Below, piece by piece: positions 41,889 through 63,877 of a DNA stretch of 64,000 nt. Location: IMG/VR virus record IMGVR_UViG_3300037461_001731, positions 4,355 to 68,354 of that record; one strand, 5' to 3'. The position numbers and the translations under genes are program-made. Source of the stretch: a virus. Taxonomy: Duplodnaviria > Caudoviricetes. How positions within the stretch are numbered: the first letter of the stretch is position 1; each line of letters starts with the position of its first letter. The notes under the pieces are model-generated. The model searched no databases and was not told the origin of the DNA. It was given only the letters and a program-made list of their open reading frames with translations.

Positions 41889-41912
41889 TAATTAGCAAAA
41901 AGATTATATAAA

Positions 41913-42515
41913 ATGAATAATAAATATGTAAAATTTCTTGAAAAACATGTGGATTGGCATAGTATATCGAAAGATAAAAGGATATCAAAAGCTTTCATTA
42001 GAGAATTCCAGAACAAGGTTAGGTGGGAATATATTTCACGTTATCAAACGCTGTCAGAAAAATTCATTAGAGAATTTCAAGATAGAGTTAGTTGGGAATA
42101 TATTTCACATTATCAAACCTTATCAGAAGATTTTATACGAGAATTTAAAGATAATGTTAATTGGTATCATATTTCAAAGGATCAAACGTTGTCTGAAGAC
42201 TTCATTAGAGAATTTCAAGATAATGTTGATTGGGATTATGTTTCAGGTTGTCAAAAATTATCAGAAGACTTTATCAGAGAATTTAAAGATAAAGTTGATT
42301 GGATTCGCGTATCAGCATGTCAAACCTTATCAGAAGATTTCATAAGAGAATTTAAGGATGAAGTTGATTGGAGTCGTATTTCAATATGTCAAAAATTATC
42401 AGAAGACTTCATTAGAGAATTTAAAGATAGAGTTTATTGGGTAGCTATTTCATTATACCAAAAATTATCAAAAGATTTTATCAGAGAATTCAAACAAAAA
42501 GGTTATATAAAATGA
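41913..42515 (+). CDS. Trp-repeat protein, type B cap, 7 modules
   Basis: LSExFIREFxDxVxWxxISxxQ repeats. Confidence 0.9.
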   Translation: MNNKYVKFLEKHVDWHSISKDKRISKAFIREFQNKVRWEYISRYQTLSEKFIREFQDRVSWEYISHYQTLSEDFIREFKDNVNWYHISKDQTLSEDFIREFQDNVDWDYVSGCQKLSEDFIREFKDKVDWIRVSACQTLSEDFIREFKDEVDWSRISICQKLSEDFIREFKDRVYWVAISLYQKLSKDFIREFKQKGYIK

Positions 42516-43384
42516 AATGTGTAAATTGTAAAAATTTTAATATCTTTAGCACTTTTTGTAATACGTTAAGTCATCCAGTTGACCCTAATTATCATTGTAA
42601 TGGTTTTAGTAATATAAGTAATACTGTTATAAGTAACGCAAATTTAGATGCAGAGATCAAAAGAATATTGAGTTATTATGCTATAGACTATGATGTTAAC
42701 ATGTCCGGTAAAGATTTAATGCAATTTTGTAGAATAAATATTGATGACACGCAATTGGTTGAGGTGGTGTGGACTCAAAAACTATCAGAAGATTTTATTA
42801 GAGAATTTCAAGATAAAATTGACTGGAGCCACATTTTAATTAATCAAACATTATCAGAAAATTTCATCAGAGAATTTCAGGATAAAATTGACTGGGGTCT
42901 AATTTCATATAATCAAAAATTATCAGAAGACTTCATCAGAGAATTTAAAGATAAGGTTGACTGGTTTTGGATTTCTGAATGTCAAACGTTATCAGAAGAT
43001 TTCATTAGAGAATTTAAAGATAAGGTTGATTGGGATTATATTTCAGAGCATCAAATATTATCAGAAAACTTTATCAGAGAATTTCAAGACAAGGTTAACT
43101 GGGAGTGTATTTCAAGTTGTCAAACCTTATCAGAAGATTTCATTCGAGAATTTAAGGATAAGGTTGACTGGGATTATATTTCATATAATCAAAAATTATC
43201 AGAAGACTTCATCAGAGAATTTAAAGATAAGGTTGACTGGTTTTGGATTTCTGAATGTCAAACGTTATCAGAAGATTTCATTAGAGAATTTAAAGATAAG
43301 GTTGATTGGGATGAGATTTTAAAGCATCAAAAATTATCAACTAATTTCATCAATGAATTCAAACAGAAAGGTTATATTAAATGA
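42512..43384 (+). CDS. Trp-repeat protein, type C (Cys4) cap, 8 modules
   Basis: True start at the ATGA junction 42512 (MKCVNCKNF); the track start 42437 lies inside the previous gene. Confidence 0.9.
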   Translation: MKCVNCKNFNIFSTFCNTLSHPVDPNYHCNGFSNISNTVISNANLDAEIKRILSYYAIDYDVNMSGKDLMQFCRINIDDTQLVEVVWTQKLSEDFIREFQDKIDWSHILINQTLSENFIREFQDKIDWGLISYNQKLSEDFIREFKDKVDWFWISECQTLSEDFIREFKDKVDWDYISEHQILSENFIREFQDKVNWECISSCQTLSEDFIREFKDKVDWDYISYNQKLSEDFIREFKDKVDWFWISECQTLSEDFIREFKDKVDWDEILKHQKLSTNFINEFKQKGYIK

Positions 43385-43959
43385 ATAAAAAAGATATGTT
43401 AAAAGATGTTATTAATCAGTATAAACAGACACATCCTAATGATAAAAAAGATTTATTAAGTAATTTTTGGGAGGATATAAGTTATAAGGTTAAACTATCT
43501 GAAGCTTTTATCAGAGAATTTAAAGATAAAGTTTGCTGGATTAGTATTTCAGTACATCAAGAATTATCAGAAGATTTCATAAGAGAATTTAAGGATAGAG
43601 TTGAATGGAATTGGACTTCAGTAAATCAAAAATTATCAGAAGATTTCATGCGAGAATTCGAGTATAGAGTTAACTGGAGTTGGGTTTCAACGCGTCAAAC
43701 GCTGTCTGAAGATTTCATTAGAGAATTTAAAGATAAGTGGAATTGGAGTTATATTTCAAGTTGTCAAACCTTATCAGAAGATTTCATCAGAGAATTTAAG
43801 GATAAGGTTGAGTGGAGTTATATTTCAAGTTGTCAAACCTTATCAGAAAACTTCATTAGAGAATTTAAAGATAGAGTTGATTGGGATGAGATTTTAAAGC
43901 GTCAAAAATTATCAACTAATTTCATTAATGAATTCAAACAAAAAGGTTATATTAAATGA
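43381..43959 (+). CDS. Trp-repeat protein, type A cap, 6 modules
   Basis: MNKKDMLKDVINQYKQ cap + repeats. Confidence 0.9.
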   Translation: MNKKDMLKDVINQYKQTHPNDKKDLLSNFWEDISYKVKLSEAFIREFKDKVCWISISVHQELSEDFIREFKDRVEWNWTSVNQKLSEDFMREFEYRVNWSWVSTRQTLSEDFIREFKDKWNWSYISSCQTLSEDFIREFKDKVEWSYISSCQTLSENFIREFKDRVDWDEILKRQKLSTNFINEFKQKGYIK

Positions 43960-44489
43960 ATGAGAAATATAAAAATATAATTGAAAAACACGCAAACTGG
44001 AAAAGAATTTCTAAAGAAGAATTGTTATCAGAAGATTTCATTAGAGAATTTAAGGATAAAGTCTATTGGAGGAGTATTTCGATATATCAAACATTATCAG
44101 AAGACTTTATAAGAGAATTTAAGGATAAAGTTAAGTGGGGTAATATTTCAATATGTCAAACCTTATCGGAAGATTTCATTAGAGAATTTAAGAATAAGGT
44201 TGATTGGGAAAGTATTTCAGAATGTCAAATCTTATCAGAAGATTTCATTAGAGAATTTAAGGATAAGGTTGAGTGGGGTCATATTTCAAGTTGTCAAACC
44301 TTATCAGAAGATTTCATTAGAGAATTTAAGGATAAGGTTGAGTGGAGTTATATTTCAAGTTGTCAAACCTTATCAGAAGATTTCATTAGAGAATTTAAGG
44401 ATAAGGTTATTTGGTTTTGGATTTCAAGACATCAAACATTATCTGAAGACTTCATCAATGAATTCAAGCAGAAAGGGTATATTAAATGA
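43956..44489 (+). CDS. Trp-repeat protein, type B cap, 6 modules
   Basis: MNEKYKNIIEKHANW cap + repeats. Confidence 0.9.
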   Translation: MNEKYKNIIEKHANWKRISKEELLSEDFIREFKDKVYWRSISIYQTLSEDFIREFKDKVKWGNISICQTLSEDFIREFKNKVDWESISECQILSEDFIREFKDKVEWGHISSCQTLSEDFIREFKDKVEWSYISSCQTLSEDFIREFKDKVIWFWISRHQTLSEDFINEFKQKGYIK

Positions 44490-44926
44490 ATAAAAGAGAT
44501 ATGTTAAGAGATGTTATTAAGCAGTATAAACAAGAATGTTCTAATGATGAAGAAGATTTATTAATTAATTTTTGGGGGGATATAAGTTATAAGGTTAAAC
44601 TATCTGAAGCTTTTATCAGAGAATTTCAAAATAAGGTTAATTGGAGAGCTATTTCATGGAGTCAAACATTATCGGAAGACTTCATTAGAGAATTTAAGGA
44701 TAAAGTTAACTGGTATCATATTTCATGGCGTCAAACATTGTCAGAAAACTTCATTAGGGAGCTTCAAGATAAAGCTGATTGGTATTGTATTTCATATTAT
44801 CAAACATTATCAGAAGATTTTATTAGAGAATTTAAAGATAGAGTTAACTGGAGTTATATTTTATATAAACAAAAATTATCAACTAATTTCATCAATGAAT
44901 TCAAGCAGAAAGGTTATATTAAATGA
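44486..44926 (+). CDS. Trp-repeat protein, type A cap, 4 modules
   Basis: MNKRDMLRDVIKQYKQ cap + repeats. Confidence 0.9.
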   Translation: MNKRDMLRDVIKQYKQECSNDEEDLLINFWGDISYKVKLSEAFIREFQNKVNWRAISWSQTLSEDFIREFKDKVNWYHISWRQTLSENFIRELQDKADWYCISYYQTLSEDFIREFKDRVNWSYILYKQKLSTNFINEFKQKGYIK

Positions 44927-45801
44927 ATAAAGAATATACAGATATATTTAAAAAATACGCAAACTGGGAAAGAATTTCTAAAGAAGAACTGTTATCGGAA
45001 GATTTCATTAGAGAATTTGAAGCTGAAGTTAATTGGAATTGGATCTCATGGTATCAAACGCTATCAGAAGACTTCATTAGAGAATTCCAAGATGAAGTTA
45101 ATTGGTGTAAGATTTCAGAACGTCAAAAATTATCAGAAGACTTTATCAGAGAATTTAAAGGTGAAGTTTATTGGGCTGGGATTTCATGTCACCAAATGCT
45201 ATCAGAGGTCTTCATACGAGAATTTAAGAATAGAGTTGATTGGGTGGGTATTTCATCATGTCAAAAATTATCAGAAGATTTCATACGAGAATTTAAAGAT
45301 GAAGTTTATTGTGGTTATATTTCACAATATCAAGAATTATCAGAAGACTTCATTAGAGAATTTCAAGATAAAGTTAATTGGGGGCGTATTTCAAGATCTC
45401 AAACATTATCAGAAGATTTTATTAGAGAATTTAAGGATAAAGTTAATTGGGATTATATTTCAGAGCATCAAAAATTATCAGAAGACTTTATCAGAGAATT
45501 TAAAGGTGAAGTTTGCTGGATTAGTATTTCAGTACATCAAGAATTATCAGAAGACTTTATAAGAGAATTTAAGGATAAAGTTTATTGGGATTATATTTCA
45601 TGGCATCAAAAACTATCAGAAGATTTCATCAGAGAATTTAAGGATAAAGTTTATTGGATTCGTGTATCAGCATGTCAAACATTATCAGAAGATTTCATAC
45701 GAGAATTTAAAGATGAAGTTTATTGGGATTATATAGTTAGGCATCAAACACTATCAAAAGACTTTATTAATGAATTCAAGCAGAAGGGTTATATAGAATG
45801 A
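44923..45801 (+). CDS. Trp-repeat protein, type B cap, 11 modules
   Basis: MNKEYTDIFKKYANW cap + repeats. Confidence 0.9.
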   Translation: MNKEYTDIFKKYANWERISKEELLSEDFIREFEAEVNWNWISWYQTLSEDFIREFQDEVNWCKISERQKLSEDFIREFKGEVYWAGISCHQMLSEVFIREFKNRVDWVGISSCQKLSEDFIREFKDEVYCGYISQYQELSEDFIREFQDKVNWGRISRSQTLSEDFIREFKDKVNWDYISEHQKLSEDFIREFKGEVCWISISVHQELSEDFIREFKDKVYWDYISWHQKLSEDFIREFKDKVYWIRVSACQTLSEDFIREFKDEVYWDYIVRHQTLSKDFINEFKQKGYIE

Positions 45802-46124
45802 TTAAAAAATATAAAGATATAACTGAAAAATATATGGACTGGATGAGAATTTCTGAAGAAGAGTTGTTATCAGAAGACTTCATTAGGAAGTTTCAAGATA
45901 AAGTTTATTGGGGTTATATTTCACAATATCAAGAATTATCAGAAGACTTCATTAGAGAATTTCAAGATAAAGTCTATTGGAGGCGTATTTCGACATATCA
46001 AACATTATCAGAAGACTTTATAAGAGAATTTAAGGATAAAGTTGATTGGCGATATATTTCATATCATCAAAAACTATCAAAAGACTTTATTAATGAATTC
46101 AAACAGAAAGGTTATATAGAATGA
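45798..46124 (+). CDS. Trp-repeat protein, type B cap, 3 modules
   Basis: MIKKYKDITEKYMDW cap + repeats. Confidence 0.9.
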   Translation: MIKKYKDITEKYMDWMRISEEELLSEDFIRKFQDKVYWGYISQYQELSEDFIREFQDKVYWRRISTYQTLSEDFIREFKDKVDWRYISYHQKLSKDFINEFKQKGYIE

Positions 46125-46522
46125 ATAAAGAATATAAAAATATAATTGAAAAATATACATTTACTGACTGGGGAAGAATTTCTGAAGAAGAAACATTATC
46201 TGAAGATTTTATCAGGGAGTTTAAGGATAAAGTTTATTGGGGTTATATTTCAGCATGGCAAACATTATCAGAAGATTTCATACGAGAATTTGAAGATAAA
46301 GTTGATTGGGGTGATATTTCAACATATCAAAAATTATCTGAAGATTTCATACGAGAATTTAAAGATAAAGTTGATTGGGGTGATATTTCAACATATCAAA
46401 AATTATCTGAAAATTTTATTAGAGAATTTCAAGATAAAGTTAATTGGAGATGTATTTCAAGATCTCAAACATTATCAGAAGATTTTATTAAAGAATTCAA
46501 GCAGAAGGGTTATATTAAATGA
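46121..46522 (+). CDS. Trp-repeat protein, type B cap, 4 modules
   Basis: MNKEYKNIIEKYTFTDW cap + repeats. Confidence 0.9.
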   Translation: MNKEYKNIIEKYTFTDWGRISEEETLSEDFIREFKDKVYWGYISAWQTLSEDFIREFEDKVDWGDISTYQKLSEDFIREFKDKVDWGDISTYQKLSENFIREFQDKVNWRCISRSQTLSEDFIKEFKQKGYIK

Positions 46523-47040
46523 TATTTGTTACTTCGGATCATCATTTTGGGCATTATAAAATTCTTGAATATCAGAAAGATACAAGACCTTTTTGTACTA
46601 TAGACGATATGGATAATTTTTATATTGATTCATGGAATTCACAAGTATCAGATAAAGATACTGTCTATCATTTAGGTGATTTTTGCTTTAAAAATGCTAA
46701 ATTCTATTTTTCTAGATTAAGGGGGATAATAAAAGTTATTCCTGGAAATCATGACCGTTGGGCAAAAAAGAAAAAAGAGAAGTTATTTTCAGCGTCTAAC
46801 CGTGAAATAGAAATTTTGCAACCTGTGTGCGTTCTAAAAGTAGATAAAGTTAACAAGTTTGTGCTATGTCATTATCCTATGTATTCTTGGCCGCATTCAA
46901 ATTATGGAGTACTTCATTTTCACGGGCATACCCATAGAAAAATAGGATATAACGAAAATGCAATACATGTAGGTATTGATGAACATCAAAAATTACTAAG
47001 TTTAAGAGATTTTATGAAAGGTCTGTCATGGAAAAAATAG
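46519..47040 (+). CDS. calcineurin-like metallophosphoesterase
   Basis: SDHHFGH, LGDF, GNHD, HYP, HGHTH. Confidence 0.9.
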   Translation: MIFVTSDHHFGHYKILEYQKDTRPFCTIDDMDNFYIDSWNSQVSDKDTVYHLGDFCFKNAKFYFSRLRGIIKVIPGNHDRWAKKKKEKLFSASNREIEILQPVCVLKVDKVNKFVLCHYPMYSWPHSNYGVLHFHGHTHRKIGYNENAIHVGIDEHQKLLSLRDFMKGLSWKK

Positions 47041-47186
47041 TATTAAATATTATTTTATTAGTGAGTATTATTAGTATTCCTTTAATTTTTTCAATACCAA
47101 TTTTTTTAGACTATAAGCTTAAAAAATTGGAATTTTTAAGTAAAAAGTGTAAAGATAAAGATGAAAACAGAGATGAAAACTGGTGA
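47028..47186 (+). CDS. 52-aa single-pass membrane protein (not in the track)
   Basis: MEKIVLNIILLVSIISIPLIFSIPIFLDYKLKK..., translated by hand. Confidence 0.5.
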   Translation: MEKIVLNIILLVSIISIPLIFSIPIFLDYKLKKLEFLSKKCKDKDENRDENW

Positions 47187-48258: not shown

Positions 48259-48283
48259 TAATTTTTATGAAAGGAGTGCTTGT

Positions 48284-49152: not shown

Positions 49153-49515
49153 GTGGCTGACTACGAAAAAGAACTAAACAGTTTTTTAGAACTTATTGAA
49201 AATACTGGGGTTTCTAAAAGTTTTAAAGAAAAAATGTATCCATTAGTGGAGCGTATTTTTAAAGAATTTGATGGTGAACTTAAAAATGAATTGTTGACTT
49301 TGGCTACAGAGTGTGCTATAACTAAAGCTGAAACTGAAAGTTCATTAGAAAATATAAGAATAAAATTAGGAGAAATGCAAAAAGAAAATGAATATTTAAG
49401 AGAAGCTATTAGAATTACTGTGGATTTAGTTAAAAAGAAAAAAGAAGAATGTGAGAATATAATTTCTAGTCATTATTTAAGTAAGTTAGGTGGAAAGAGT
49501 AGCATCGAGAGCTAA
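49153..49515 (+). CDS. coiled-coil hypothetical protein
   Basis: 120-aa ORF. Confidence 0.55.
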   Translation: MADYEKELNSFLELIENTGVSKSFKEKMYPLVERIFKEFDGELKNELLTLATECAITKAETESSLENIRIKLGEMQKENEYLREAIRITVDLVKKKKEECENIISSHYLSKLGGKSSIES

Positions 49516-50755
49516 AATGTCAAACCTATGCAACGATATGGCTAATGTTCTAACTTATTATAATGTTCCTTTTGAGGAAGACTTTGTTTTTGAAAAGTTT
49601 AATGAGTTAGTTAAGACACTGTCTGAAGAAGATTGGCATTTTCTTTGTAGGAATCTAAGGTTTTCCGAAGAATTTCTGCAAAAATTTGGTGAGAACTTAA
49701 ACTGGAACTTAGTTTCTTTGTTTCAAAAATTATCAGAGAGTTTTATAGAAAAAAATATAAAAAAAATAAATATTTTAAGTTTATCTGCTTATGTTAAGCT
49801 GTCTCCTGAATTCATAGATAGATACATAGATATGCTTGATCTTGAAATTTTGGTAAAAAGGCAGTTTCTCCCAGATTGGCTGATTGAAAAACATATTGAG
49901 TTATTTAAAGTTTCTTTTTTTAGTAAGCTTGACAATAAGAACATTACGTATTTAAAATTATGTGGAAGGCATCAAATTTTAGAAGAAGATCTTATTAAAA
50001 AGTACATAGAATATTTTGATTTTGAAGACCTTATCAGAAATCAACCATTGTCTGCCTTTTTTTTGGAGGACAATGTTGAAAAAATTAATTTTAAGCTAAT
50101 TTCATGTTTTCAAGTTCTATCTGAAAATTTTATTGAAAAACATTTAGAAAAATTTACATTTAAGCATTTGGCTAAGTACCAAAAGCTTTCGGAAGAGTTC
50201 ATTGATAAATATTTTAATAATTTTGTAAAAGATGAGGCTATTTCTTACTTGTGTAAGTACCAAGCCTTGTCAAAAAAGATTGTTAATAAATACATAAAAC
50301 TTTTAGATGAAGAAGCCCTTGGAAAGTATCAAATGCTTCCAAAAGGTTTTTTGAGTAAAAATGGGGTAAAAGTAAGCGAAGAGAATTGGTTTCATAAATC
50401 TAAAAATTTTAAAATCAATTATTTAAAGAATAACACAAAGTGTGAAATTGTGGATAACAACTATATTATAGCTTATATGGGCGTAAGATACAAAAATTAC
50501 GCTTTAGATAATTTTAGGAATAAATTCCTTGTTGATGTAAAGTATAAGGCATCGTGTAATGACTACATAGAAGGTCGCAAAGGTTCCGGGTTTATGGTGT
50601 GGCTAGATCCGGATTTAGCGGATCTTTTTTATGACAGTGATAAAGTGTTAAAAGTAAAAGTAAATATAAAAGACATAAGTTATATTCATCTAAAGGATGA
50701 TTTTATAAATGGGTGCGTTAACTGCTATGCGTTAGTAGTACTCAAGGAGATTTAG
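49490..50755 (+). CDS. divergent Trp-repeat family protein with extra C-terminal domain (probable start 49517)
   Basis: 23-aa periodic units such as FSEEFLQKFGENLNWNLVSLFQK and LSEEFIDKY; about 120-aa non-repetitive C-domain. Confidence 0.75.
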   Translation: MERVASRAKMSNLCNDMANVLTYYNVPFEEDFVFEKFNELVKTLSEEDWHFLCRNLRFSEEFLQKFGENLNWNLVSLFQKLSESFIEKNIKKINILSLSAYVKLSPEFIDRYIDMLDLEILVKRQFLPDWLIEKHIELFKVSFFSKLDNKNITYLKLCGRHQILEEDLIKKYIEYFDFEDLIRNQPLSAFFLEDNVEKINFKLISCFQVLSENFIEKHLEKFTFKHLAKYQKLSEEFIDKYFNNFVKDEAISYLCKYQALSKKIVNKYIKLLDEEALGKYQMLPKGFLSKNGVKVSEENWFHKSKNFKINYLKNNTKCEIVDNNYIIAYMGVRYKNYALDNFRNKFLVDVKYKASCNDYIEGRKGSGFMVWLDPDLADLFYDSDKVLKVKVNIKDISYIHLKDDFINGCVNCYALVVLKEI

Positions 50756-54095: not shown

Positions 54096-54420
54096 AAAAG
54101 AAATAAATACTGTTTGTGCTTATTTCATAGGTTTGTTTGTATTAAATACTTGCGATATCTTTTTTACGTTGTATGCGTTAGACCATGGATTTTTTGAAGC
54201 TAATTACTTAATGCGAAAATTGATAGAATTTTCCCCAATAGCTTTTATTTTTGTAAAGAACATTATTATAATATTGTGTTTAGCTATTTTTAGCTATGCG
54301 TTTGATTGTGGAAAATTTGATAGTAAGTTCATTATAAATATTTTAAAGTTTGTGACAAGTATTTATTTATTTGTATTGTTTATTCATATTTTTAATATGA
54401 CTATAATTTTTGGAGGTTAA
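54061..54420 (+). CDS. DUF5658-like membrane protein
   Basis: LNTCDIFFTLYAL..G..EANYLM with transmembrane segments. Confidence 0.6.
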   Translation: MIFPTLKKTCIEKEINTVCAYFIGLFVLNTCDIFFTLYALDHGFFEANYLMRKLIEFSPIAFIFVKNIIIILCLAIFSYAFDCGKFDSKFIINILKFVTSIYLFVLFIHIFNMTIIFGG

Positions 54421-54847
54421 CATGTCTGAAATAATTTATCCAAATTTTGTTGGAGATTTAGCGGAATTAGTGGGTAAACCTACAGTTGCGAATGATGCTT
54501 TTTATGGATGTTTAGCTATAAATAAAAAATTAAATTCTTTTATTTTAATTTCTAACTCTATAAAGCCGAAAGATGATTTAGCTATTCCTCTTTCACCTGG
54601 ATATTATTTTGAATTGGTTACAGAAGATCATCCAACATTGGGGAAAGATTTAGATTATGTTGAAGAAATATGTTCTAATATTGACTGGTCGCTTTTATCT
54701 TCGGATTGGGAATATAGCTCTATGAATGTGTCTAAACTTTTTGTAAAATGTAATATGTGCAAACACTTCTCTTTGCTTAACTTGTACTGCAATTTGACAA
54801 ATAAGCGAAAAGATCCAGGAAGTGGTTGTTATTGTGGGGAATTGTAA
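54410..54847 (+). CDS. hypothetical protein with C-terminal Cys4 module
   Basis: CNMCKHFSLLNLYC...KDPGSGC. Confidence 0.6.
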   Translation: MEVNMSEIIYPNFVGDLAELVGKPTVANDAFYGCLAINKKLNSFILISNSIKPKDDLAIPLSPGYYFELVTEDHPTLGKDLDYVEEICSNIDWSLLSSDWEYSSMNVSKLFVKCNMCKHFSLLNLYCNLTNKRKDPGSGCYCGEL

Positions 54848-54866: not shown

Positions 54867-55337
54867 TTACTTTGTTTCCTCAAACAATATATAACATATT
54901 AAACTTTCTATCACTCCTTCAGTATTTACTGGACTAGCACAATTCCCGTATCGCTCTAGGCTAATTTCCATGTTATGTAGGATAGCGTCTTTTTGACTAC
55001 AAATTAGTCTTTTTTTGTTGATTTCTTTTGTAAAGACTGATTTTCCAGACAAAATCATTTGCTTATAGTACTCCGTTGGGATTTTTTCTAAAATTAAGCT
55101 ATTATAATAAATTAAACCATATAAAAGTTCTTGTTTTGGGGATTTCGTTGTTATAAAGTCATTAAAATCTTCGTTAACTTTTGCTAGTACTTTTTCTTCT
55201 AATTTTGAGAAAAAATACAAAAAGTTTTCTTTTTTTATTTCTGTTATAAAATCGCAAAATTTTTCTATATTTTTCATTTTTTTCTCCAAAAAAGCAGTTG
55301 ATTTAGTATTTAAGATAACCTTTTTGCTTGAATTCAT
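54867..55337 (-). CDS. hypothetical protein (probable start at MKNIEK)
   Basis: Follows the minus-strand repeat genes; GGAG RBS before MKNIEK. Confidence 0.55.
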   Translation of the reverse strand: MNSSKKVILNTKSTAFLEKKMKNIEKFCDFITEIKKENFLYFFSKLEEKVLAKVNEDFNDFITTKSPKQELLYGLIYYNSLILEKIPTEYYKQMILSGKSVFTKEINKKRLICSQKDAILHNMEISLERYGNCASPVNTEGVIESLICYILFEETK

Positions 55338-55677
55338 TAATGAAACTGGTTGATAGCCTTTGATTGTTAACTATATAACCCCAATCAACTTCATCTTTAA
55401 ATTCTCTGATGAAATCTTCTGATAATTTTTGACACATTGAAATCCATGTCCAGTTAACCTTATCTTTAAATTCTCTGATAAAATTTTCTGATAGTTTTTG
55501 ATATTGTAAAATAAAACGCCAGTCAACTTTATCCTTAAATTCTCTAATAAAATCTTCTGATAGCTTAACATAATTACTCACTTCTTTCCAAAAATCCTTT
55601 AATAAGTCTTTTTTATCATTAGGATATTTCTGCTTATACTGATTAATAACATCTTTTAACATATCTTTTTTATTCAT
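55303..55677 (-). CDS. Trp-repeat protein, type A cap, 3 modules (array 2)
   Basis: MNKKDMLKDVINQYKQ cap + repeats + FINEFKQKGYLKY. Confidence 0.9.
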   Translation of the reverse strand: MNKKDMLKDVINQYKQKYPNDKKDLLKDFWKEVSNYVKLSEDFIREFKDKVDWRFILQYQKLSENFIREFKDKVNWTWISMCQKLSEDFIREFKDEVDWGYIVNNQRLSTSFINEFKQKGYLKY

Positions 55678-56138
55678 TTAATATAACCTTTCTGCTTGAA
55701 TTCTCGTATGAAATCTTCTGACAATGTTTGATATTTTGATATATGATACCAACTAACTTTATCTTTAAATTCTCTAATGAAATCTTCTGATAATTTTTGA
55801 CCCCATGAAATATTTTTCCAATTAACTTTATCCTTAAATTCTCGTATGAAGTCTTCTGACAATGTTTGATGCCATGAAATACAATACCAACTAACCTTAT
55901 CTTGAAACTCTCTAATGAAGTCTTCCGATAGTGTTTGCTTATGAGAAATATGATCCCAGACAACCTCATCCTTAAATTCTCTAATGAAATCTTCTGATAA
56001 TTTTTTAGCCCATGAAATGCTGCCCCAGTCACCCGTATCTTTAAATTCTCTAATGAAATCTTCTGGTAATTTTTTTTCTTTAGAAATTTTCTTCCAATCT
56101 ATATATTCAATAAGTATATATATATTTATTTTATTCAT
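55674..56138 (-). CDS. Trp-repeat protein, type B cap, 5 modules (array 2)
   Basis: Start at the ATGA junction (MNKINIY). Confidence 0.9.
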   Translation of the reverse strand: MNKINIYILIEYIDWKKISKEKKLPEDFIREFKDTGDWGSISWAKKLSEDFIREFKDEVVWDHISHKQTLSEDFIREFQDKVSWYCISWHQTLSEDFIREFKDKVNWKNISWGQKLSEDFIREFKDKVSWYHISKYQTLSEDFIREFKQKGYIK

Positions 56139-56190
56139 TCTATATACCATTTCTGCTTGAATTCATTAATGAAATTTTCAGATTATGTGA
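56135..56190 (-). pseudogene. orphan, inactivated C-cap/junction (SENFINEFKQKWYIE*)
   Basis: Matches the conserved gene end, but ACATAA replaces ACATTA and there is no upstream gene. Confidence 0.8.
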
Positions 56191-58198: not shown

Positions 58199-58200
58199 CT

Positions 58201-58626
58201 ATGAGGCTTCGTTTTGTAGCAGATCTGAAAAATCTTTCAAAAAAGAAAAAAATTAAAAATTACACATATAACTTGGCACAGTGTGATGAATTATTTTTAT
58301 TTTTTAATGATAGTTTGTCTGTTCCCAGACTTTACTTTTTTCATGAAGAAGATTTGATTGTGTCAAATAGTGCTTTTGAATCCTTATCATTACGACATAA
58401 GAGGGCTTGCATCCTACATGAATTAGGGCATAGAGAGCTTAAACATAAAGATGATATTAGCAATAAAGTGAAAAATGAATTTGAAGCTGATGATTTTTCA
58501 CAAAAAGCTGGATATGGAAAAGAGTTGTACGATATTCTTTCCTTATCCGCAAAAAAATTAGCAAAAGAAAAAAATGATGTTAGTTTCCTTGTAGAACGGG
58601 CAAAAAGGTTGTTAAAGAGTAATTAA
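58201..58626 (+). CDS. M48-like zinc metallopeptidase domain protein
   Basis: LHELGH...NEFEADDFS..AGYG. Confidence 0.7.
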   Translation: MRLRFVADLKNLSKKKKIKNYTYNLAQCDELFLFFNDSLSVPRLYFFHEEDLIVSNSAFESLSLRHKRACILHELGHRELKHKDDISNKVKNEFEADDFSQKAGYGKELYDILSLSAKKLAKEKNDVSFLVERAKRLLKSN

Positions 58627-58672
58627 ATTATCTTGAATGCTAGAGTATTCAGGTTTTATTTTTGGAGGATAA

Positions 58673-58912
58673 ATGATTGAAATTACTGTAAGTAGCGCAT
58701 TTATGGCGCAAGATCTTTATGAAATTTTTGAAAAAGATGGCGTTCTTTGTTATAAATGTGTGAACGTTAAGCTTATTCAGAACTTGAGTGAAACTTTTAC
58801 AGCAGGAATGATAATCCCTTATTGTGAAATAGTTCAAGACGTTGTTACATTTAAAGATGAAAATGGTGATACCTTGGGGGTTTTTAAACTACTAGAGGAA
58901 GTGCAAGAATAA
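58673..58912 (+). CDS. hypothetical protein
   Basis: GGAGG RBS, 79 aa. Confidence 0.55.
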   Translation: MIEITVSSAFMAQDLYEIFEKDGVLCYKCVNVKLIQNLSETFTAGMIIPYCEIVQDVVTFKDENGDTLGVFKLLEEVQE

Positions 58913-59156
58913 TCTTATTTAAATTTTTTACAATAAATATTTGATCGAGCAGCTTTGGTTTACACTACAAAAGGACTGTAGTTATAATTTGTGGTGTAAA
59001 TTAGTTGCTTTAATTAAGGTTAATTGTTATAAATTGTGATAAAATTACTTTTTAGCGAAATACTTTTATATTTTGGACATACCAAGTCAAGCAATTCTTA
59101 TTAAAATCAAATACTTATCAGTAACTTAGAAAAATCAAAAAATTTTTGAAAAAATC

Positions 59157-59185
59157 TTGACAACCCGCCAAGCCTGGTTTATATT
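59157..59185 (+). promoter_or_regulatory. sigma70 promoter (twin of 61442)
   Basis: TTGACA-17 bp-TATATT; flanks identical to the 61442 promoter. Confidence 0.75.
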
Positions 59186-59226
59186 ATAAATAGAAGACGG
59201 GATATAACTAAAAAGGAGAAAGAAAA

Positions 59227-59520
59227 ATGGTTGTAATTTCAAGAAATAAAGCGGAAAAACTAAGAGCCTTGTATAAGCCCCAATTTATAGGAAAATCAAG
59301 CTTTTTCGAAACTGCTATTTTTCTTTATTTAAGGCATAATTTACAATCTAGCCAAAAAGCCATTGTCAATTCTTTTTTAAGTGTACTTTGTAGCGAGTGT
59401 ATCGATCAAATCGCAGACGTTTTGTCTTCTGAAAAATTATTGACTTTATTTGTTGTTACAGAAAATTTAAATGAATGTTATTATGTATTTAACGGTGAAA
59501 TAGACCACATAAATGATTAA
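59227..59520 (+). CDS. hypothetical protein
   Basis: AAGGAG RBS, 97 aa. Confidence 0.55.
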   Translation: MVVISRNKAEKLRALYKPQFIGKSSFFETAIFLYLRHNLQSSQKAIVNSFLSVLCSECIDQIADVLSSEKLLTLFVVTENLNECYYVFNGEIDHIND

Positions 59521-59525
59521 ATATC

Positions 59526-59900
59526 ATGAAATGTAATAACTGTAGAAACTTTAATATTTTCAGTACTGTATGTAATATATTCAGTCATCCAGTTGATCCT
59601 AATTATTATTGTAATAGTTTTAGTAATACAAATAATAGCGCTGTAAGTAATACAAATACGAACGAAGCTGTTAAACATACTAATTTGTATTATCTTGAAC
59701 AAGGTATAGAATTTCAAATAATAAGTATTTATAATGAAGTTATGGATCAAAAAGTAGAAGCAGCAACCTCAGAACAAGCAGCTATTTTTAAAGCGCAAAT
59801 TTTTGTAGAGAAATTATTGGAAGCGGGTATGTCTCTTTCGGAAGCTAAAGCAATATGTGGTTTAACAAAAGACAAAGGTTTTAATTCACTTTTTAGTTAA
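59526..59900 (+). CDS. chimeric protein: type C Cys4 cap fused to a copy of the C-terminal domain of the 1026-aa virion-like protein
   Basis: N-half matches 42512/63074; C-half matches 28861-29055. Confidence 0.85.
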   Translation: MKCNNCRNFNIFSTVCNIFSHPVDPNYYCNSFSNTNNSAVSNTNTNEAVKHTNLYYLEQGIEFQIISIYNEVMDQKVEAATSEQAAIFKAQIFVEKLLEAGMSLSEAKAICGLTKDKGFNSLFS

Positions 59901-59925
59901 AACAAGGGCTTATTATGTCGGAAAA

Positions 59926-59988
59926 ATGGAATTAAAACTGTCATACAATTTCATTAATGAATTCAAACAGAAAGGGTATATAAAATGA
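59926..59988 (+). CDS. 20-aa zero-repeat mini-ORF consisting only of the C-cap (MELKLSYNFINEFKQKGYIK)
   Basis: Translated by hand; ends in the ATGA junction of 59985. Confidence 0.5.
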   Translation: MELKLSYNFINEFKQKGYIK

Positions 59989-60704
59989 ATAAAAAAGATA
60001 TGCTAACAGACGTCATTAAGCAGTATAAACAGAAATATCTTAATTATAAAAAAGATTTATTAAATGATTTTTGGGATTATATAAGTTATAAGGTTAAATT
60101 ACCAGAAGCTTTTATCAGAGCATTTAAAGATAATGTTAATTGGTATTGTATATCAGAGCACCAAAAATTATCTGAAGATTTCATACGAGAATTTAAGGAT
60201 AATGTTGATTGGGATTGGATTTCATTTTATCAAGCACTGTCAGAAGATTTTATACGAGAATTTAAGGATAATGTTAATTGGTATTGTATTTCATGGCATC
60301 AAAAACTATCAGAAGATTTCATCAGAGAATTTAAGGATGAAGTTAGCTGGGATTATATTTCACAACATCAAAAATTATCAGAAGATTTTATACGAGAATT
60401 TAAAGATAGGGTTGATTGGTATCGGATTTCATGTCATCAAAAACTATCAGAAGACTTTATCAGAGAGTTTAAGAGTAGAGTTTGCTGGATTGGTATTTCA
60501 CATTATCAAATATTATCAGAGGATTTTATAAGGGAATTTAAGGATAAAGTTTATTGGAATTATATTTCAGCATGGCAAACATTATCAGAAGATTTCATAC
60601 GAGAATTTGAAGATAAGGTCGACTGGTGGAATTATATAGTTAAGTATCAAAAATTATCAACCAGCTTCATTAATGAACTCAAGCAGAAAGGGTATATAAA
60701 ATGA
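59985..60704 (+). CDS. Trp-repeat protein, type A cap, 8 modules (array 3)
   Basis: MNKKDMLTDVIKQYKQ cap + repeats. Confidence 0.9.
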   Translation: MNKKDMLTDVIKQYKQKYLNYKKDLLNDFWDYISYKVKLPEAFIRAFKDNVNWYCISEHQKLSEDFIREFKDNVDWDWISFYQALSEDFIREFKDNVNWYCISWHQKLSEDFIREFKDEVSWDYISQHQKLSEDFIREFKDRVDWYRISCHQKLSEDFIREFKSRVCWIGISHYQILSEDFIREFKDKVYWNYISAWQTLSEDFIREFEDKVDWWNYIVKYQKLSTSFINELKQKGYIK

Positions 60705-61417
60705 ATAAAAGAGATATGTTAAAAGATGTCATTAAACAATATAAGCAGATATATCCTAATGATAAAAAATACTTATTAAAAGATTTTTATGAAATAATAG
60801 GTATAAATTGTGAACTGTCTGAAGATTTTATAAGAGAATTCCAAAATAAGGTTAATTGGAATAATATTTCACTGTACCAAACATTATCAGAAGATTTCAT
60901 TAGAGAATTTAAAGATGAAGTATGCTGGTATTATATTTCAACACATCAAACACTATCAGGAGACTTCATTAGAGAATTTAAGAATAAGGTTGATTGGTCT
61001 TGTATTTCAGGGTGTCAAAAACTATCAGAAGATTTCATCAGAGAATTTAAGAATAAAGTTGACTGGTATTATATTTCAATACATCAGACGTTATCAGAAA
61101 ACTTCATAAGAGAATTTCAAGATAAAGTTGATTGGGAATATATTTCATGTCATCAAAAACTATCAGAAGACTTTATAAGAGAATTTCAAGATAAAGTTGA
61201 TTGGTATAACATTTCATGGCATCAAACATTATCAGAAGATTTTATCAGAGAATTCCAAGATAAAGTTAACTGGGGTTGTATTTCAGCATATCAAAAATTA
61301 TCTGAAGATTTTATTATAGAATTTAAGAATAAAGTTGGCTGGAAATATATTTCAGAATATCAAAGCCTATCAACCAATTTCATTAATGAATTCAAGCAGA
61401 AAGGGTACATTAAATGA
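60701..61417 (+). CDS. Trp-repeat protein, type A cap, 8 modules (array 3)
   Basis: MNKRDMLKDVIKQYKQ cap + repeats. Confidence 0.9.
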   Translation: MNKRDMLKDVIKQYKQIYPNDKKYLLKDFYEIIGINCELSEDFIREFQNKVNWNNISLYQTLSEDFIREFKDEVCWYYISTHQTLSGDFIREFKNKVDWSCISGCQKLSEDFIREFKNKVDWYYISIHQTLSENFIREFQDKVDWEYISCHQKLSEDFIREFQDKVDWYNISWHQTLSEDFIREFQDKVNWGCISAYQKLSEDFIIEFKNKVGWKYISEYQSLSTNFINEFKQKGYIK

Positions 61418-61441
61418 ATTTTAAAAATATTTGAAAAAATC

Positions 61442-61470
61442 TTGACAATCCACCAAATCCATCTTATATT
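61442..61470 (+). promoter_or_regulatory. sigma70 promoter (twin of 59157)
   Basis: TTGACA-17 bp-TATATT. Confidence 0.75.
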
Positions 61471-61511
61471 ATAAATAGAAGATGCGACAAACAAAAAAGG
61501 AGATAAGAAAA

Positions 61512-61748
61512 ATGTATTGTAGAATATGTGGCTCAGAACGAAATGCTCGATATAGGGCATCTAAATTACAATTTCTTTGTAAAGAATGTAATAAGGATAC
61601 TCCTAAAAAAATATCTTATGACGATTTTACAGAAAAATTTTGGAGAAACGATGATAATGTGCCTTTTTCGATGAAAAGAGAATTTTATCAGGATTATCTT
61701 TCTTCATGCTGTACTTATGACGAGTATGTTATAGCTGTTACAGGTTAG
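61512..61748 (+). CDS. small zinc-finger protein
   Basis: CRIC...CKEC; ATG after AAGGAG. Confidence 0.6.
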   Translation: MYCRICGSERNARYRASKLQFLCKECNKDTPKKISYDDFTEKFWRNDDNVPFSMKREFYQDYLSSCCTYDEYVIAVTG

Positions 61749-61770
61749 CTATTTTAGAAAGGAAAAAACT

Positions 61771-62079
61771 ATGATTAAAGAATACACTTTTGACCATATT
61801 GTAACCGCTTGGGATTTTATCAATAATACCGATTATGTTTGGGTAGAAAGACTTAAACTTAACGCTGACAATATATATAAGGCGATTCAGGATTTTGTTA
61901 TATTTAATTTAAAATCTGATTTGCGACAAGGGGTTGAATGTTATGTTGATTATGTCTTTCGTGACAATTGGACGCTAGATGAATACAAGCTAAAGTTTGG
62001 TAAAGAAGCTTTAAACCGCCTTAGAAAAACAATTGATCTACGTGAGAATAACGAAATAATTTTTTCAGAAGATATTTAA
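61771..62079 (+). CDS. hypothetical protein, paralog of 53619-53921
   Basis: See paralog. Confidence 0.7.
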   Translation: MIKEYTFDHIVTAWDFINNTDYVWVERLKLNADNIYKAIQDFVIFNLKSDLRQGVECYVDYVFRDNWTLDEYKLKFGKEALNRLRKTIDLRENNEIIFSEDI

Positions 62080-62089
62080 AAGAGGCTCA

Positions 62090-62413
62090 ATGGAAAAAGA
62101 ATACTGGATAGTTTATTTGCACGATTCTTTGTGTGGAACAAGTACAAGATTGGTAATGCTTGACCATGCGCCAAATAAGGCGGAAATCCTTAGATTGTTT
62201 AAGTATTATATAAATTTTTTTCTAAAAAAATGTGAAGGATTTAAACAGTCAATGTCTATTTCTTTTTTAAAAGATTTGGATGATGATGCTGTGTCTGCTA
62301 CTGAAATTTTGTACAAATACACTGTAAAAAGGCTTAGCTACACAGTGGAAAAACAAACGGATGAGGCAGAGATAAGCAATAAATTTAGTCTTCCAAAAGA
62401 ATATCTGGTTTAA
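62090..62413 (+). CDS. hypothetical protein
   Basis: GAGG RBS, 107 aa. Confidence 0.55.
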   Translation: MEKEYWIVYLHDSLCGTSTRLVMLDHAPNKAEILRLFKYYINFFLKKCEGFKQSMSISFLKDLDDDAVSATEILYKYTVKRLSYTVEKQTDEAEISNKFSLPKEYLV

Positions 62414-62420
62414 AAAGATA

Positions 62421-62449
62421 TTGACATTTTATTATTTAATAGTTATATT
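62421..62449 (+). promoter_or_regulatory. sigma70 promoter
   Basis: TTGACA-17 bp-TATATT. Confidence 0.7.
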
Positions 62450-62511
62450 TTAATTAGAAGTTGGTAAAAATGTACTAAAAAGGTACGGTTTATCAAAAGG
62501 AGAATTTAGAA

Positions 62512-63051
62512 ATGGAAGTGTTAACTAAAGGTGTGAATCACAATTTTTTTTGCGCACTAGTTGTAGAATTTAAAAATGAAGAGTATACTATAAATTTAAC
62601 AAATATTGAAAAGAGTCAGATTTTAAATGCATTAAGTAGTTTTGATTTAAATAAAATATATGTACAAGATTTTTTAGGATTAGAATCTATTGTAAATTCT
62701 ATTTTAGAATATTTCAAAAATAAGTCTTTTGAAGAATGTTTAGACTATGCGCTTGATGTTGTTAACTTATTTCAAGAGTATGGAGATCTTTTTATAGCCG
62801 TCTATGATGAAGAAAATTGTTTAAATGCAGTGAAAAAAATTTTTAGAGAGTACCAGTATAGCGGTTATTGTGAAAACTTGGGAACTTTTGCAAAAATAAA
62901 ATTGTTATCAAGGTACACTTTGCCGGAAATCGCAATAAAACATATAAATTGGGAAAAATTGGCGATAGATTTTCTAAAAACGGAAGATGGTTCTTATCTT
63001 TTTTATCGTGATTACGAAGGAGACGGATATTACATAATGATCAAAAATTGA
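62512..63051 (+). CDS. ArdA-like antirestriction protein
   Basis: C-terminal YSGYCENLGTFAK...LPEIAIKHINWEKLAIDF parallels ArdA (YQG.Y....FA....IP......DYE..ARDL). Confidence 0.5.
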   Translation: MEVLTKGVNHNFFCALVVEFKNEEYTINLTNIEKSQILNALSSFDLNKIYVQDFLGLESIVNSILEYFKNKSFEECLDYALDVVNLFQEYGDLFIAVYDEENCLNAVKKIFREYQYSGYCENLGTFAKIKLLSRYTLPEIAIKHINWEKLAIDFLKTEDGSYLFYRDYEGDGYYIMIKN

Positions 63052-63073
63052 TCTGTAAATAAGGTTATATAAA

Positions 63074-63877
63074 ATGAAATGTGTAAATTGTAAAAATTTT
63101 AATATCTTTAGCACTTTTTGTAATACGTTAAGTCATCCGGTTGACCCTAATTATCATTGTAATAGTTTTAGTAATATAAGTAATACTGTTATAAGTAACA
63201 TAAATTTAGATGAAGAGATCAAAAGAGTATTGAGTTATTCTGCTATAGACTATGATAGTAATCTATCTGGTAACGATTTAGTGCAATTCTGTAGGATAAT
63301 TCTTAATAATGATCAATGTGGTAGAATAGGATGGACCCAAAAATTATCTGAAGATTTCATACGAGAATTTAAGGATAATGTTGATTGGCATTGTATTTCA
63401 ATACATCAAATATTGTCAGAAGATTTTATACGAGAATTTAAGGATAGGGTTGATTGGGGGTCTATTTCAGAATTTCAAACATTATCAGAAGATTTCATAC
63501 GAGAATTTAAGGATAGGGTTGATTGGAGAAATATATCAATAGATCAAACACTATTAGAAGATTTCATACGAGAATTTAAGGATAGGGTTGATTGGGATTA
63601 TATTTCAGAGCATCAAGTACTGGTAGAAGATTTCATCAGAGAGCTTAAAGACAAGGTTGATTGGGGTATGATTTCATATTATCAAACACTATTAGAAGAT
63701 TTCATACGAGAATTTAAGGATAGGGTTGATTGGGATTATATTTCAGAGCAGCAAACATTATCAGAAGATTTCATACGAGAATTTAAGGATAGGGTTGATT
63801 GGGATACGATTCCATATTACCAAACATTATCAACCAATTTCATTAATGAATTCAAGCAGAAAGGTTATATAAAATGA
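63074..63877 (+). CDS. Trp-repeat protein, type C (Cys4) cap, 7 modules (array 4)
   Basis: N-cap nearly identical to 42512. Confidence 0.9.
   Translation: MKCVNCKNFNIFSTFCNTLSHPVDPNYHCNSFSNISNTVISNINLDEEIKRVLSYSAIDYDSNLSGNDLVQFCRIILNNDQCGRIGWTQKLSEDFIREFKDNVDWHCISIHQILSEDFIREFKDRVDWGSISEFQTLSEDFIREFKDRVDWRNISIDQTLLEDFIREFKDRVDWDYISEHQVLVEDFIRELKDKVDWGMISYYQTLLEDFIREFKDRVDWDYISEQQTLSEDFIREFKDRVDWDTIPYYQTLSTNFINEFKQKGYIK

What the first reader, a model, noticed from the sequence alone, without database searches (positions are those of the whole stretch)
41893..63877. Cassette-like architecture: n genes, n+1 conserved junctions, with orphan junctions before the first gene of every array
Seen: each gene ends in about 45 bp of consensus AATTTCATTAATGAATTCAA(A/G)CAGAAAGG(T/G)TATAT(T/A)AA-ATGA. 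This encodes the C-cap, contains the RBS-like AAAGG and start of the next gene, and often includes the 12-bp palindrome TTCATTAATGAA. A junction with no gene of its own also precedes each array: AGCAAAAAGATTATATAAAATGA (41894-41916), a stop-inactivated full copy (56135-56190, minus), a full copy (59935-59988), and AAGGTTATATAAAATGA (63061-63077). After the last gene the junction launches an unrelated phosphoesterase (46519) or a bare ATGA followed by a promoter (61414). Inference: the junction is the unit boundary for insertion, excision or duplication of whole genes, integron-cassette-like, and it gives every new arrival translational coupling. No site-specific recombinase lies in this window; the phage RecA is an alternative driver.
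Basis: partly seen in the sequence, partly recalled or inferred. Interest (0 to 1): 0.78.

Follow-up and report, generated by a model that had tools for sequence, protein, structure and literature searches.

The report
Shared stop-start junction in repeat-gene arrays
A large uncultured phage carries rows of look-alike repeat-protein genes. Each gene ends in the same short sequence, which also holds the ribosome-binding site and start codon of the next gene; this is what tandem gene duplication with coupled translation produces, not an integron-like cassette system.

Summary
The conserved junction is real. An 18-base core occurs 16 times, only in the four arrays, against about 2 copies expected by chance. 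It is the last 16 codons of each paralogue: a half repeat plus the tail QKGYIK. A Shine-Dalgarno AAAGG sits in the Lys-Gly codons, 9 nt before an ATGA stop/start overlap.

Variation among the 13 copies is mostly synonymous (15 synonymous, 10 not; p=2e-6). Silent sites vary as much as in the internal repeats. The 12-bp palindrome is exact in only 7 of 15 copies, and five lose it to a silent change. The junction DNA does not fold into a hairpin. The 68-kb record holds no tyrosine or serine recombinase and no transposase, but it does hold a RecA.

Orphan copies begin at different points (-13, -21, about -50, about -53). The two long ones are leftovers of disrupted genes.

A homologous junction occurs in another metagenomic phage. 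Other junction sequences built the same way occur in further phages.

Verdict: tandem paralogues of the "tryptophan repeat" family with translational coupling. The coupling idea is supported and the integron idea is not. Whether homologous recombination prefers the junction could not be tested, because no close relative or read data were available. The scan has noted this gene family, with similar chimeras, on other DNA.

The parts
41913..46522 (+). Array 1: eight tandem 23-aa-repeat genes. N-cap types run B, C, A, B, A, B, B, B, and every adjacent pair overlaps by ATGA.
41894..41916 (+). Short orphan junction ahead of array 1. It matches the consensus from about -21, the SD GG is changed to GA, and it starts 6 nt after the stop of gene 41400-41888.
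42465..42515 (+). Junction 1: C-cap of the FIREF type with tail, SD and ATGA.
43334..43384 (+). Junction 2
43909..43959 (+). Junction 3
44439..44489 (+). Junction 4
44876..44926 (+). Junction 5
45751..45801 (+). Junction 6
46074..46124 (+). Junction 7
46472..46522 (+). Junction 8. Its ATG starts the phosphoesterase gene.
46519..47040 (+). Calcineurin-like phosphoesterase, unrelated to the family, coupled to the last array gene by ATGA.
   Evidence: Metallophos_2, E 3.5e-5; relatives align from residue 1-5
55303..56138 (-). Array 2: two genes (type B 55674-56138, type A 55303-55677) on the minus strand.
56135..56190 (-). Long orphan: a C-cap remnant with an in-frame TAA and an altered SD. It lies in the 5' leader, between a promoter-like site (56246-56218) and the first gene.
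55674..55724 (-). Junction between the two minus-strand genes.
55303..55356 (-). Decayed junction. The ATGA is lost and the gene ends KGYLKY then stop.
59526..59900 (+). Chimeric gene: type-C Cys-rich N-cap joined to a copy of the 3' end of the 1026-aa gene.
59709..59928 (+). Inserted copy of window 28861-29081: gene end, stop, RBS and the first five codons of the next gene.
59935..59988 (+). Long orphan: the intact C-cap remnant of the chimeric gene. It can be read as a 20-codon mini-ORF (59926-59988) that ends on the ATGA of gene 59985.
59985..61417 (+). Array 3: two type-A genes.
60654..60704 (+). Junction inside array 3.
61367..61417 (+). Terminal junction of array 3, followed by a 2-codon ORF.
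61418..61441 (+). Probable remnant of a type-B N-cap after the last junction (empirical p 0.013).
63061..63077 (+). Short orphan ahead of array 4. The 96% identity with array 1 (42499-42694) starts here, 13 nt before the ATG.
63074..64000 (+). Array 4: a type-C gene, then a type-A gene cut by the contig end.
63827..63877 (+). Junction inside array 4.
16058..17104 (+). Phage RecA, the only recombination protein found in the record.
   Evidence: PF00154, E 1.9e-104

Best explanation
The 'junction' is the common 3' end of tandemly duplicated paralogues of a 23-residue helical repeat family, labelled the 'tryptophan repeat gene family'. It is fused to the translation start of the next gene.

Each gene ends with a half repeat (LSxxFIxEFK) plus the tail QKGYIK. 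The Lys-Gly codons spell a Shine-Dalgarno, AAAGG. Nine bases further on, the next gene's ATG overlaps the TGA stop as ATGA. The arrays are therefore polycistronic units in which ribosomes finishing one gene start the next.

The sequence is alike in all copies for three reasons: the copies share descent, the sequence codes for protein, and it must keep the initiation signals. It is not a recombination site. Copy number and repeat content change by ordinary homologous recombination and gene conversion across the many hundreds of bases of repeat homology, with the phage RecA as the likely agent, and by occasional illegitimate events.

Orphan copies are of two kinds. The short ones are the 13-21 nt leader with SD that any copy needs for expression. 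The long ones are the surviving C-caps of family genes that were disrupted.

Shown: the anatomy, the coding-type constraint, the absence of a fold, the absence of recombinases in the record, the chimera, and homologous or analogous junctions elsewhere. Inferred: actual coupling, and RecA as the driver.
For: - The core 18-mer has 16 copies, only in the arrays.
- Cap variation sits at codon position 3 (0.20, against 0.08 and 0.05 at positions 1 and 2). This equals position-3 variation in 75 internal units (0.21).
- Of the variant states, 15 are synonymous and 10 are not, against 25 and 119 possible (p=2e-6). In the tail alone the counts are 5 and 2 (p=0.002).
- The palindrome is broken by silent changes in 5 copies and is absent from the homologous junction in L051.
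- Single-strand folds are no better than shuffles (z 0 to +1.2, both strands).
- PF00589, PF00239, PF00665 and PF01609 are absent; RecA is present.
- Of 90 high-identity blocks, 74 are internal to the repeats and 16 run through a junction. Only 4 of 360 block ends fall at the ATGA.
- Chimera breakpoints are at about 59700 and 59928-59935. An N-cap remnant follows the last junction of array 3.
- Metagenome contig L051 has five tandem genes ending EFK(A/T)KG(Y/H)FK, with the same AAAGG and ATGA.
- L048 has a different junction of the same design, with AAGGA in the last codons and ATGA.
- Listeria phage LPJP1 and giant-virus arrays have conserved caps with short SD spacers.
- 4-nt overlaps also occur in 8 of 77 non-family gene pairs, and SD-like motifs precede 65 of 83 genes.
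- The AlphaFold model is a helical solenoid whose last helix runs through EFKQ, with the tail as coil.
Against: - N-cap class and C-cap subtype are perfectly linked: A/C genes have LST(N/S)FINE and B genes have LS(E/K)DFI(N/R/K)E, 7/0/0/6, Fisher 6e-4. Internal units, in contrast, are mixed between the classes. Crossovers at random inside the repeats of unlike neighbours should have made hybrids, and none is seen. Whole genes therefore behave as units, which a boundary near the junction would explain.
- All four array heads begin within about 55 nt of the ATG, which is shorter than random truncation of a 300-900 nt gene would usually leave.
- Translational coupling itself was not measured.
- The record is only about 38% of the genome, so a recombinase could lie elsewhere.
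Confidence: 0.72

Rival explanations
1. The junction is a module boundary for homologous recombination, like the PeSL elements of T4-type phages. RecA-type recombination between the about 50-nt junction copies, plus adjacent like N-caps, preferentially duplicates, deletes or moves whole genes. It may act through excised circles, without any site-specific enzyme.
For: - N-cap class is perfectly linked to C-cap subtype while the internal units are mixed.
- Junction copies flank every gene, and partial or full copies head the arrays.
- The type-C gene copy shared by arrays 1 and 4 has its left boundary inside the junction, at -13.
- RecA is present.
- There is precedent in PeSL-mediated shuffling and mini-circles in phi1/RB49 (PMC2839356).
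Against: - The junction offers far less homology than the repeats, where blocks reach 160-196 nt at 96-97% identity.
- Similarity blocks do not end at the junction.
- There is no linkage signal within a class, either within genes or across junctions, though power is low with n=5-6.
- The mapped breakpoints lie elsewhere.
- No gene pair is alike over its whole length.
Confidence: 0.17
2. This is an integron-like, site-specific cassette system. The junction is an attC-like site cut and joined by a dedicated recombinase encoded outside the recovered fragment.
For: The only support is the formal pattern of genes bounded by a common sequence, and the fact that 62% of the genome is missing.
Against: - The record has no Tyr or Ser recombinase and no transposase.
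- There is no hairpin potential.
- The palindrome is neither conserved nor compensated.
- Variation follows a coding pattern.
- Orphan boundaries lie at -13, -21, about -50 and about -53, not at one crossover point.
- The genes are translationally fused into operons rather than being separate promoterless cassettes with an attI and Pc.
Confidence: 0.02
3. The arrangement is partly an assembly artefact. Short-read metagenome assembly may have collapsed or mis-joined near-identical repeat genes, so gene order, copy number and some 'orphans' would be unreliable.
For: The contig ends inside array 4. The repeats are 85-97% identical over 70-196 nt. The record is a single metagenomic contig.
Against: - All 13 genes keep open frames and exact ATGA overlaps.
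- The orphans have specific, interpretable structures.
- A homologous junction array is seen independently in L051.
Confidence: 0.05

Closest known systems
Tandem arrays of 'tryptophan repeat gene family' proteins in jumbo phages and giant viruses (Bacillus phage G gp559 and about 28 places, Listeria phage LPJP1, Bacillus phage BpSp, giant-virus MAGs)
   Same: They share the 23-residue Trp-anchored repeat, at 54-64% identity. They have many copies per genome in head-to-tail rows, and within one virus the copies share N- and C-terminal ends. LPJP1 even has a stop-interrupted cap after its last gene.
   Different: Most relatives carry a C-terminal extra domain or other caps and are separated by 12-30 nt spacers. 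Here the spacer is squeezed to a 4-nt overlap and the SD lies inside the last codons. Only L051 (homologous junction) and L048 (analogous junction) share that design.
Translational coupling by overlapping stop/start codons (ATGA/UGAUG) in bacterial and phage operons; established knowledge, for example trpE-trpD and trpB-trpA of E. coli
   Same: The stop overlaps the next start, and an SD lies within the upstream coding sequence at the usual distance. The same 4-nt overlap occurs in 8 of 77 other gene pairs in this phage.
   Different: Here the same coupling element is repeated 12 times, because it was duplicated together with the gene. Coupling was not measured.
PeSL regulatory cassettes of T4-type phages (Arbiol et al. 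2010, PMC2839356; PMC4122927)
   Same: These are short conserved sequences flanking non-essential genes in plastic regions of large phages. Recombination between copies can shuffle or excise genes.
   Different: PeSLs are intergenic promoter-plus-terminator stem-loops flanking unrelated ORFs. This junction is coding, unstructured, carries an RBS rather than a promoter, and joins only paralogues. No shuffling or circles were shown here.
Integron gene cassettes (attC / IntI)
   Same: A row of genes is each bounded by a related sequence, and expression depends on the upstream context.
   Different: There is no integrase, no attC fold, no fixed crossover point and no attI or Pc. The 'site' is protein-coding and varies at silent positions.

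Membership tests
Integron cassette array | Adjacent tyrosine recombinase (IntI) | tested here: not met
   PF00589 has no match in the 68-kb record, while the controls ring in 14 of 14 genomes. The record is about 38% complete, so absence from the whole genome is not proven.
Integron cassette array | attC site: an imperfect inverted repeat that folds as a single-stranded hairpin | tested here: not met
   Eight 80-nt junction segments, on both strands, gave MFE -1 to -3.3 kcal/mol and z 0 to +1.2 against shuffles. The only palindrome is 12 bp with no loop, and it is broken in 5 copies by silent changes.
Integron cassette array | One precise crossover point shared by all cassette boundaries | tested here: not met
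   Orphan homology starts at -13, -21, about -50 and about -53.
Integron cassette array | Free circular cassettes or junction-specific rearrangements | not testable with these tools
PeSL-type phage regulatory cassette | Intergenic early promoter plus terminator stem-loop | tested here: not met
   The junction is coding, holds no promoter-like site among the best matches, and has no stem-loop.
PeSL-type phage regulatory cassette | Indels between close relatives that break at the element | not testable with these tools
   The junction pattern gave 0 hits in IMG/VR, the JGI metagenomes and the GTDB genomes. The best cultured PolA relative is 30% identical.
Translationally coupled operon (overlapping stop/start) | ATGA or similar overlap of stop and next start | tested here: met
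   All 10 within-array gene pairs have it, as do the phosphoesterase junction and the 2-codon ORF after array 3.
Translationally coupled operon (overlapping stop/start) | Shine-Dalgarno at a functional distance inside the upstream gene | tested here: met
   AAAGG or AAGGG lies 9 nt before the ATG in every intact copy. The phage uses SD-like motifs generally, in 65 of 83 genes.
Translationally coupled operon (overlapping stop/start) | Downstream translation depends on upstream translation | not testable with these tools
   This needs reporter or ribosome-profiling experiments.
Tryptophan repeat gene family (entomopoxvirus label; phage G annotation) | Tandem 23-residue repeats with an invariant Trp, and sequence similarity to annotated members | tested here: inconclusive
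   There are 75 in-register 23-aa units. Phage G gp559 is 54% identical at E 7e-42, and a paper labels phage G proteins with this name (PMC12484599). No Pfam model matches, and the entomopoxvirus proteins themselves were not compared here.

The most novel reading that the evidence does not exclude
The junction may be a portable 'stop-restart' punctuation module. It is flanked on the left by ordinary repeat sequence (LSxxFIxEFK). On the right it is flanked by an N-cap that is itself an in-register 23-residue degenerate repeat (type B). Homologous gene conversion could therefore paste it into or remove it from any repeat run. That would split one solenoid gene into two coupled genes or fuse two into one, and recombination between copies would move whole genes (PeSL-like, but coding). 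This would make the junction a real unit boundary maintained by RecA-type recombination.
Probability: 0.15. Interest if true: 0.5.

Novelty: new member of a known kind. Interest (0 to 1): 0.25.

Why it matters
The finding shows how a compact phage keeps a growing family of probable binder proteins expressed. The translation start of each gene is built into the tail of the one before, so every duplicate arrives ready to be translated. That is a tidy example, but it follows from known principles: tandem duplication, overlapping stop/start coupling and concerted evolution. It would matter more if population data showed that the junction is a preferred recombination boundary, because a coding, RBS-bearing shuffling module would then be a new variant of the T4-type PeSL idea.

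Tried and rejected
- Close relatives for breakpoint mapping were not found. megablast of the array against 50,697 phage records gave no match. The junction pattern gave 0 hits in IMG/VR, the JGI metagenomes and the GTDB genomes.
- Flanking genes gave no help. Gene 41400-41888 has no relatives in IMG/VR. The phosphoesterase has only 33-40% relatives, without synteny or family genes.
- Mantel-type tests for linkage across the junction gave r -0.33 and -0.11. Tests between a gene's own N- and C-ends within a class gave r -0.09 and 0.19. All were non-significant with n=5-6, so they are uninformative.
- Block duplication of C-then-A gene pairs was considered, because all three type-C genes are followed by a type-A gene. 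The A genes after C genes are no closer to each other than to other A genes, so it was not pursued.
- Pfam gave only sub-threshold chance hits for the family. Foldseek against the PDB gave nothing better than E 1.5, to a synthetic alpha solenoid.
- A frameshift or read-through fusion of neighbouring genes at the ATGA was considered and dropped, because no slippery heptamer is present. This was judged by eye, not tested.


Full report
**What the window is.** The window is nearly all of a 68,354-bp IMG/VR virus record with no end repeats, judged about 38% complete. It has about 30% G+C. It encodes a family A DNA polymerase, a DnaB-type helicase, an SNF2 helicase, a class II ribonucleotide reductase and a RecA (16058-17104). 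No cultured phage is close: the best polymerase match is 30% identical, and megablast of the array finds nothing.

**The genes.** Thirteen paralogues lie in four arrays: 41913-46522 (+, eight genes), 55303-56138 (-, two), 59985-61417 (+, two) and 63074 to the contig end (+, at least two).
- They are built of 23-residue units, of which I counted 75 in register.
- They have three kinds of N-terminal cap. Type A is about 45 residues. Type B is itself exactly 23 residues, with the Trp and Ile-Ser in register. Type C is a Cys-rich domain plus a linker.
- An AlphaFold model of the 124-residue gene 55303-55677 is a helical solenoid (pLDDT 84). Its last helix runs through EFKQ and the final residues are coil. 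Foldseek finds no solved relative.
- The family is large: 2,540 database proteins at E<=1e-5. It is present in giant-virus MAGs and in cultured jumbo phages of Firmicutes: phage G, Listeria phage LPJP1 and Bacillus phage BpSp.
- A follow-up note elsewhere in this scan calls it the 'tryptophan repeat gene family'. That label is used for phage G proteins in PMC12484599. I did not compare the entomopoxvirus founders myself.

**Checking the observation.**
- The 18-base core with up to 3 mismatches occurs 19 times, against 2.0 expected and a maximum of 7 in shuffles. Sixteen hits are true copies, all in the arrays. One more hit is the decayed copy at the end of array 2, and two are chance (33777; and 60050, inside a type-A N-cap). 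It is therefore not a generic ribosome-binding site of this phage.
The last minus-strand gene has lost the ATGA. The head of array 3 is really the chimeric gene 59526-59900, which has no junction upstream. The palindrome is exact in only 7 of 15 copies.

**What constrains the junction.**
- The cap reads as a half repeat plus QKGYIK. Among the 13 copies the non-consensus fraction is 0.08, 0.05 and 0.20 at codon positions 1, 2 and 3. Position 3 of the internal units gives 0.21.
- Counting variant states, 15 are synonymous and 10 are not, out of 25 and 119 possible (p=2e-6). For the six tail codons the counts are 5 and 2 (p=0.002). Silent sites drift freely, so the DNA as such is not held constant. 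The protein is, together with the AAAGG/AAGGG and the ATGA.
- Five copies break the palindrome with a silent C/T change and no compensating change.
- Eight junction segments folded as single-stranded DNA, on both strands, are no more stable than shuffles (z 0 to +1.2). This is the opposite of an attC site and fits an open initiation region.
- Four-base stop/start overlaps occur in 8 of 77 other adjacent gene pairs, and SD-like motifs precede 65 of 83 other genes. The elements are ordinary for this phage; what is special is that they were copied along with the gene.

**Recombination machinery.** Searches of the whole record with the Pfam models for tyrosine recombinases, serine recombinases, rve and DDE transposases found nothing, while the positive controls responded. 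RecA is present. Because 62% of the genome is missing, this is absence from the fragment only.

**Where rearrangements actually broke.**
- *The orphan at 59935-59988.* This is the C-cap of a type-C gene whose interior was replaced. Homology to the type-C genes runs from 59526 to about 59680. Then 59709-59928 is a copy of 28861-29081: the end of the 1026-residue gene, its stop, the next RBS and five codons. The cap resumes at 59935, so both breakpoints lie outside the ATGA core. The remnant can be read as a 20-codon mini-ORF that ends on the ATGA of gene 59985.
- *The orphan at 56135-56190.* This is a cap with an in-frame TAA and a damaged SD. It lies in the leader between a strong promoter-like site (56246-56218, 11 of 12 matches) and the first gene.
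- *After the terminal junction of array 3.* The 24 nt that follow align with a type-B N-cap (empirical p 0.013). This suggests a deleted gene whose breakpoint lay inside the N-cap.
- *The short orphans.* They begin 13 nt (63061) and about 21 nt (41894) before the ATG. The 196-nt, 96% identical block shared by the type-C genes of arrays 1 and 4 starts exactly at -13.
- *Conclusion.* There are four array heads and four different boundaries, so there is no common crossover point.

**Similarity blocks.** Among 90 blocks of at least 60 nt and at least 88% identity, 74 lie wholly inside repeat regions and 16 run straight through a junction in both copies. Only 4 of 360 block ends fall in the first 12 nt after the ATG. 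No two genes are alike over their whole length; the longest block is 196 nt. The visible exchange is therefore at the level of repeat modules, not whole cassettes.

**A point in favour of whole-gene units.**
- N-cap class and C-cap subtype are perfectly associated: A and C genes have LST(N/S)FINE, and B genes have LS(E/K)DFI(N/R/K)E (7/0/0/6, Fisher 6e-4). The genes are not independent, so this amounts to two lineages.
- Internal units, in contrast, are mixed between the classes. The nearest neighbour lies in the other class for 29 of 76 units, against 38 expected at random.
- Crossovers at random inside the repeats of unlike neighbours should create hybrids, and none is present. This fits short-patch gene conversion inside genes plus gene birth by events that keep genes whole. 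Such events could be recombination in the cap-junction-cap segment, recombination between like genes, or selection against hybrids.
- Within a class I found no linkage either across junctions or between a gene's own ends, but with 5-6 sequences the tests have little power.
- All four array heads also begin within about 55 nt of the ATG.
- These points keep alive a PeSL-like reading, that is homologous recombination between junction copies (PMC2839356). I give it about 0.17.

**Other phages.**
- The exact junction, searched as a back-translated pattern with the ATGA, is absent from IMG/VR, the JGI metagenome contigs and the GTDB genomes.
- A protein-guided scan of metagenome contigs then found L051, a 1,073-nt contig of 21% G+C. 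It has five tandem short family genes, each ending EFK(A/T)KG(Y/H)FK, with AAAGG at the same distance and an ATGA overlap. This junction is clearly homologous, differs mainly by silent or conservative changes, and lacks the palindrome. The design is therefore older than this phage and the palindrome is incidental.
- L048 has four tandem family genes with a different conserved end, in which AAGGA sits in the last codons before an ATGA overlap.
- LPJP1 (L036:11875-16953) has six tandem genes with a conserved cap and 25-32 nt SD spacers, and a stop-interrupted cap after the last gene.
- Giant-virus arrays (L026) likewise share their ends.
- Conserved gene ends are thus the normal look of tandem expansions of this family. 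The compact overlap form is one variant of it.

**Verdict.**
- The junction is best explained as the coding C-cap of duplicated paralogues with an embedded SD and an ATGA overlap that couples translation along the array.
- The integron-like interpretation fails every feature that could be tested.
- Whether homologous recombination prefers the junction cannot be decided without reads or sister genomes.
- Caveats: this is a single metagenomic contig that ends inside an array, so order and copy number need confirmation, and coupling is inferred from sequence only.

Noticed in passing
window 49490-50755: A 14th, divergent member of the repeat family (421 aa) stands alone, outside any array and without the junction. 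It has the C-terminal extra domain seen in giant-virus relatives (about 28-31% identity to L015 and L018 over residues 40-418). It may resemble the ancestral form.
   Followed up: partly
L051:1-1073 (metagenome contig Ga0307992_1115321): Five tandem, very short family genes (2-6 repeats each) lie within 1 kb of 21% G+C DNA. All are joined by a junction homologous to the one studied here. The array looks like one long repeat run punctuated by stop-restart modules.
   Followed up: partly
L048:4248-7287 and L058:3926-6738: Another environmental phage lineage has tandem family genes with a different conserved end (..LFKELVQ). An AAGGA lies in the final codons, followed by an ATGA overlap. This is an analogous junction with a different sequence.
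   Followed up: partly
window 24676-24808 and 28085-28217: A 133-nt direct repeat, 93% identical, lies outside the repeat-gene arrays. One copy is inside the 1026-residue gene. It was not examined.
   Followed up: no
window 54410-54847 (C-terminal end): The last about 35 residues of this unrelated 145-residue ORF carry a Cys-rich motif resembling the type-C N-cap of the repeat genes. It lies next to the inverted block.
   Followed up: no
window 56246-56218 (-) and 61442-61470 (+): Two promoter-like sites share an extended -35 region (TTGACAATCC) and a TATATT -10 with a 17-nt spacer. They may define a phage promoter class that bounds the arrays.
   Followed up: partly
window 42902-43063 / 43178-43339 and 63543-63612 / 63681-63750: There are recent internal duplications within single genes: 162 nt at 97% identity and 70 nt at 100%. 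Repeat number therefore changes by in-gene unequal exchange.
   Followed up: partly
all 13 junction copies, e.g. window 43353-43358: Twelve of the 13 C-caps spell GAATTC (an EcoRI site) across the Glu-Phe codons, with Phe as TTC in 12 of 13 and a Leu codon (CTC) in the other. Internal repeats mostly use TTT, and L051 uses TTT. This looks like a marker of common descent of the cap in this phage, not a conserved signal.
   Followed up: partly
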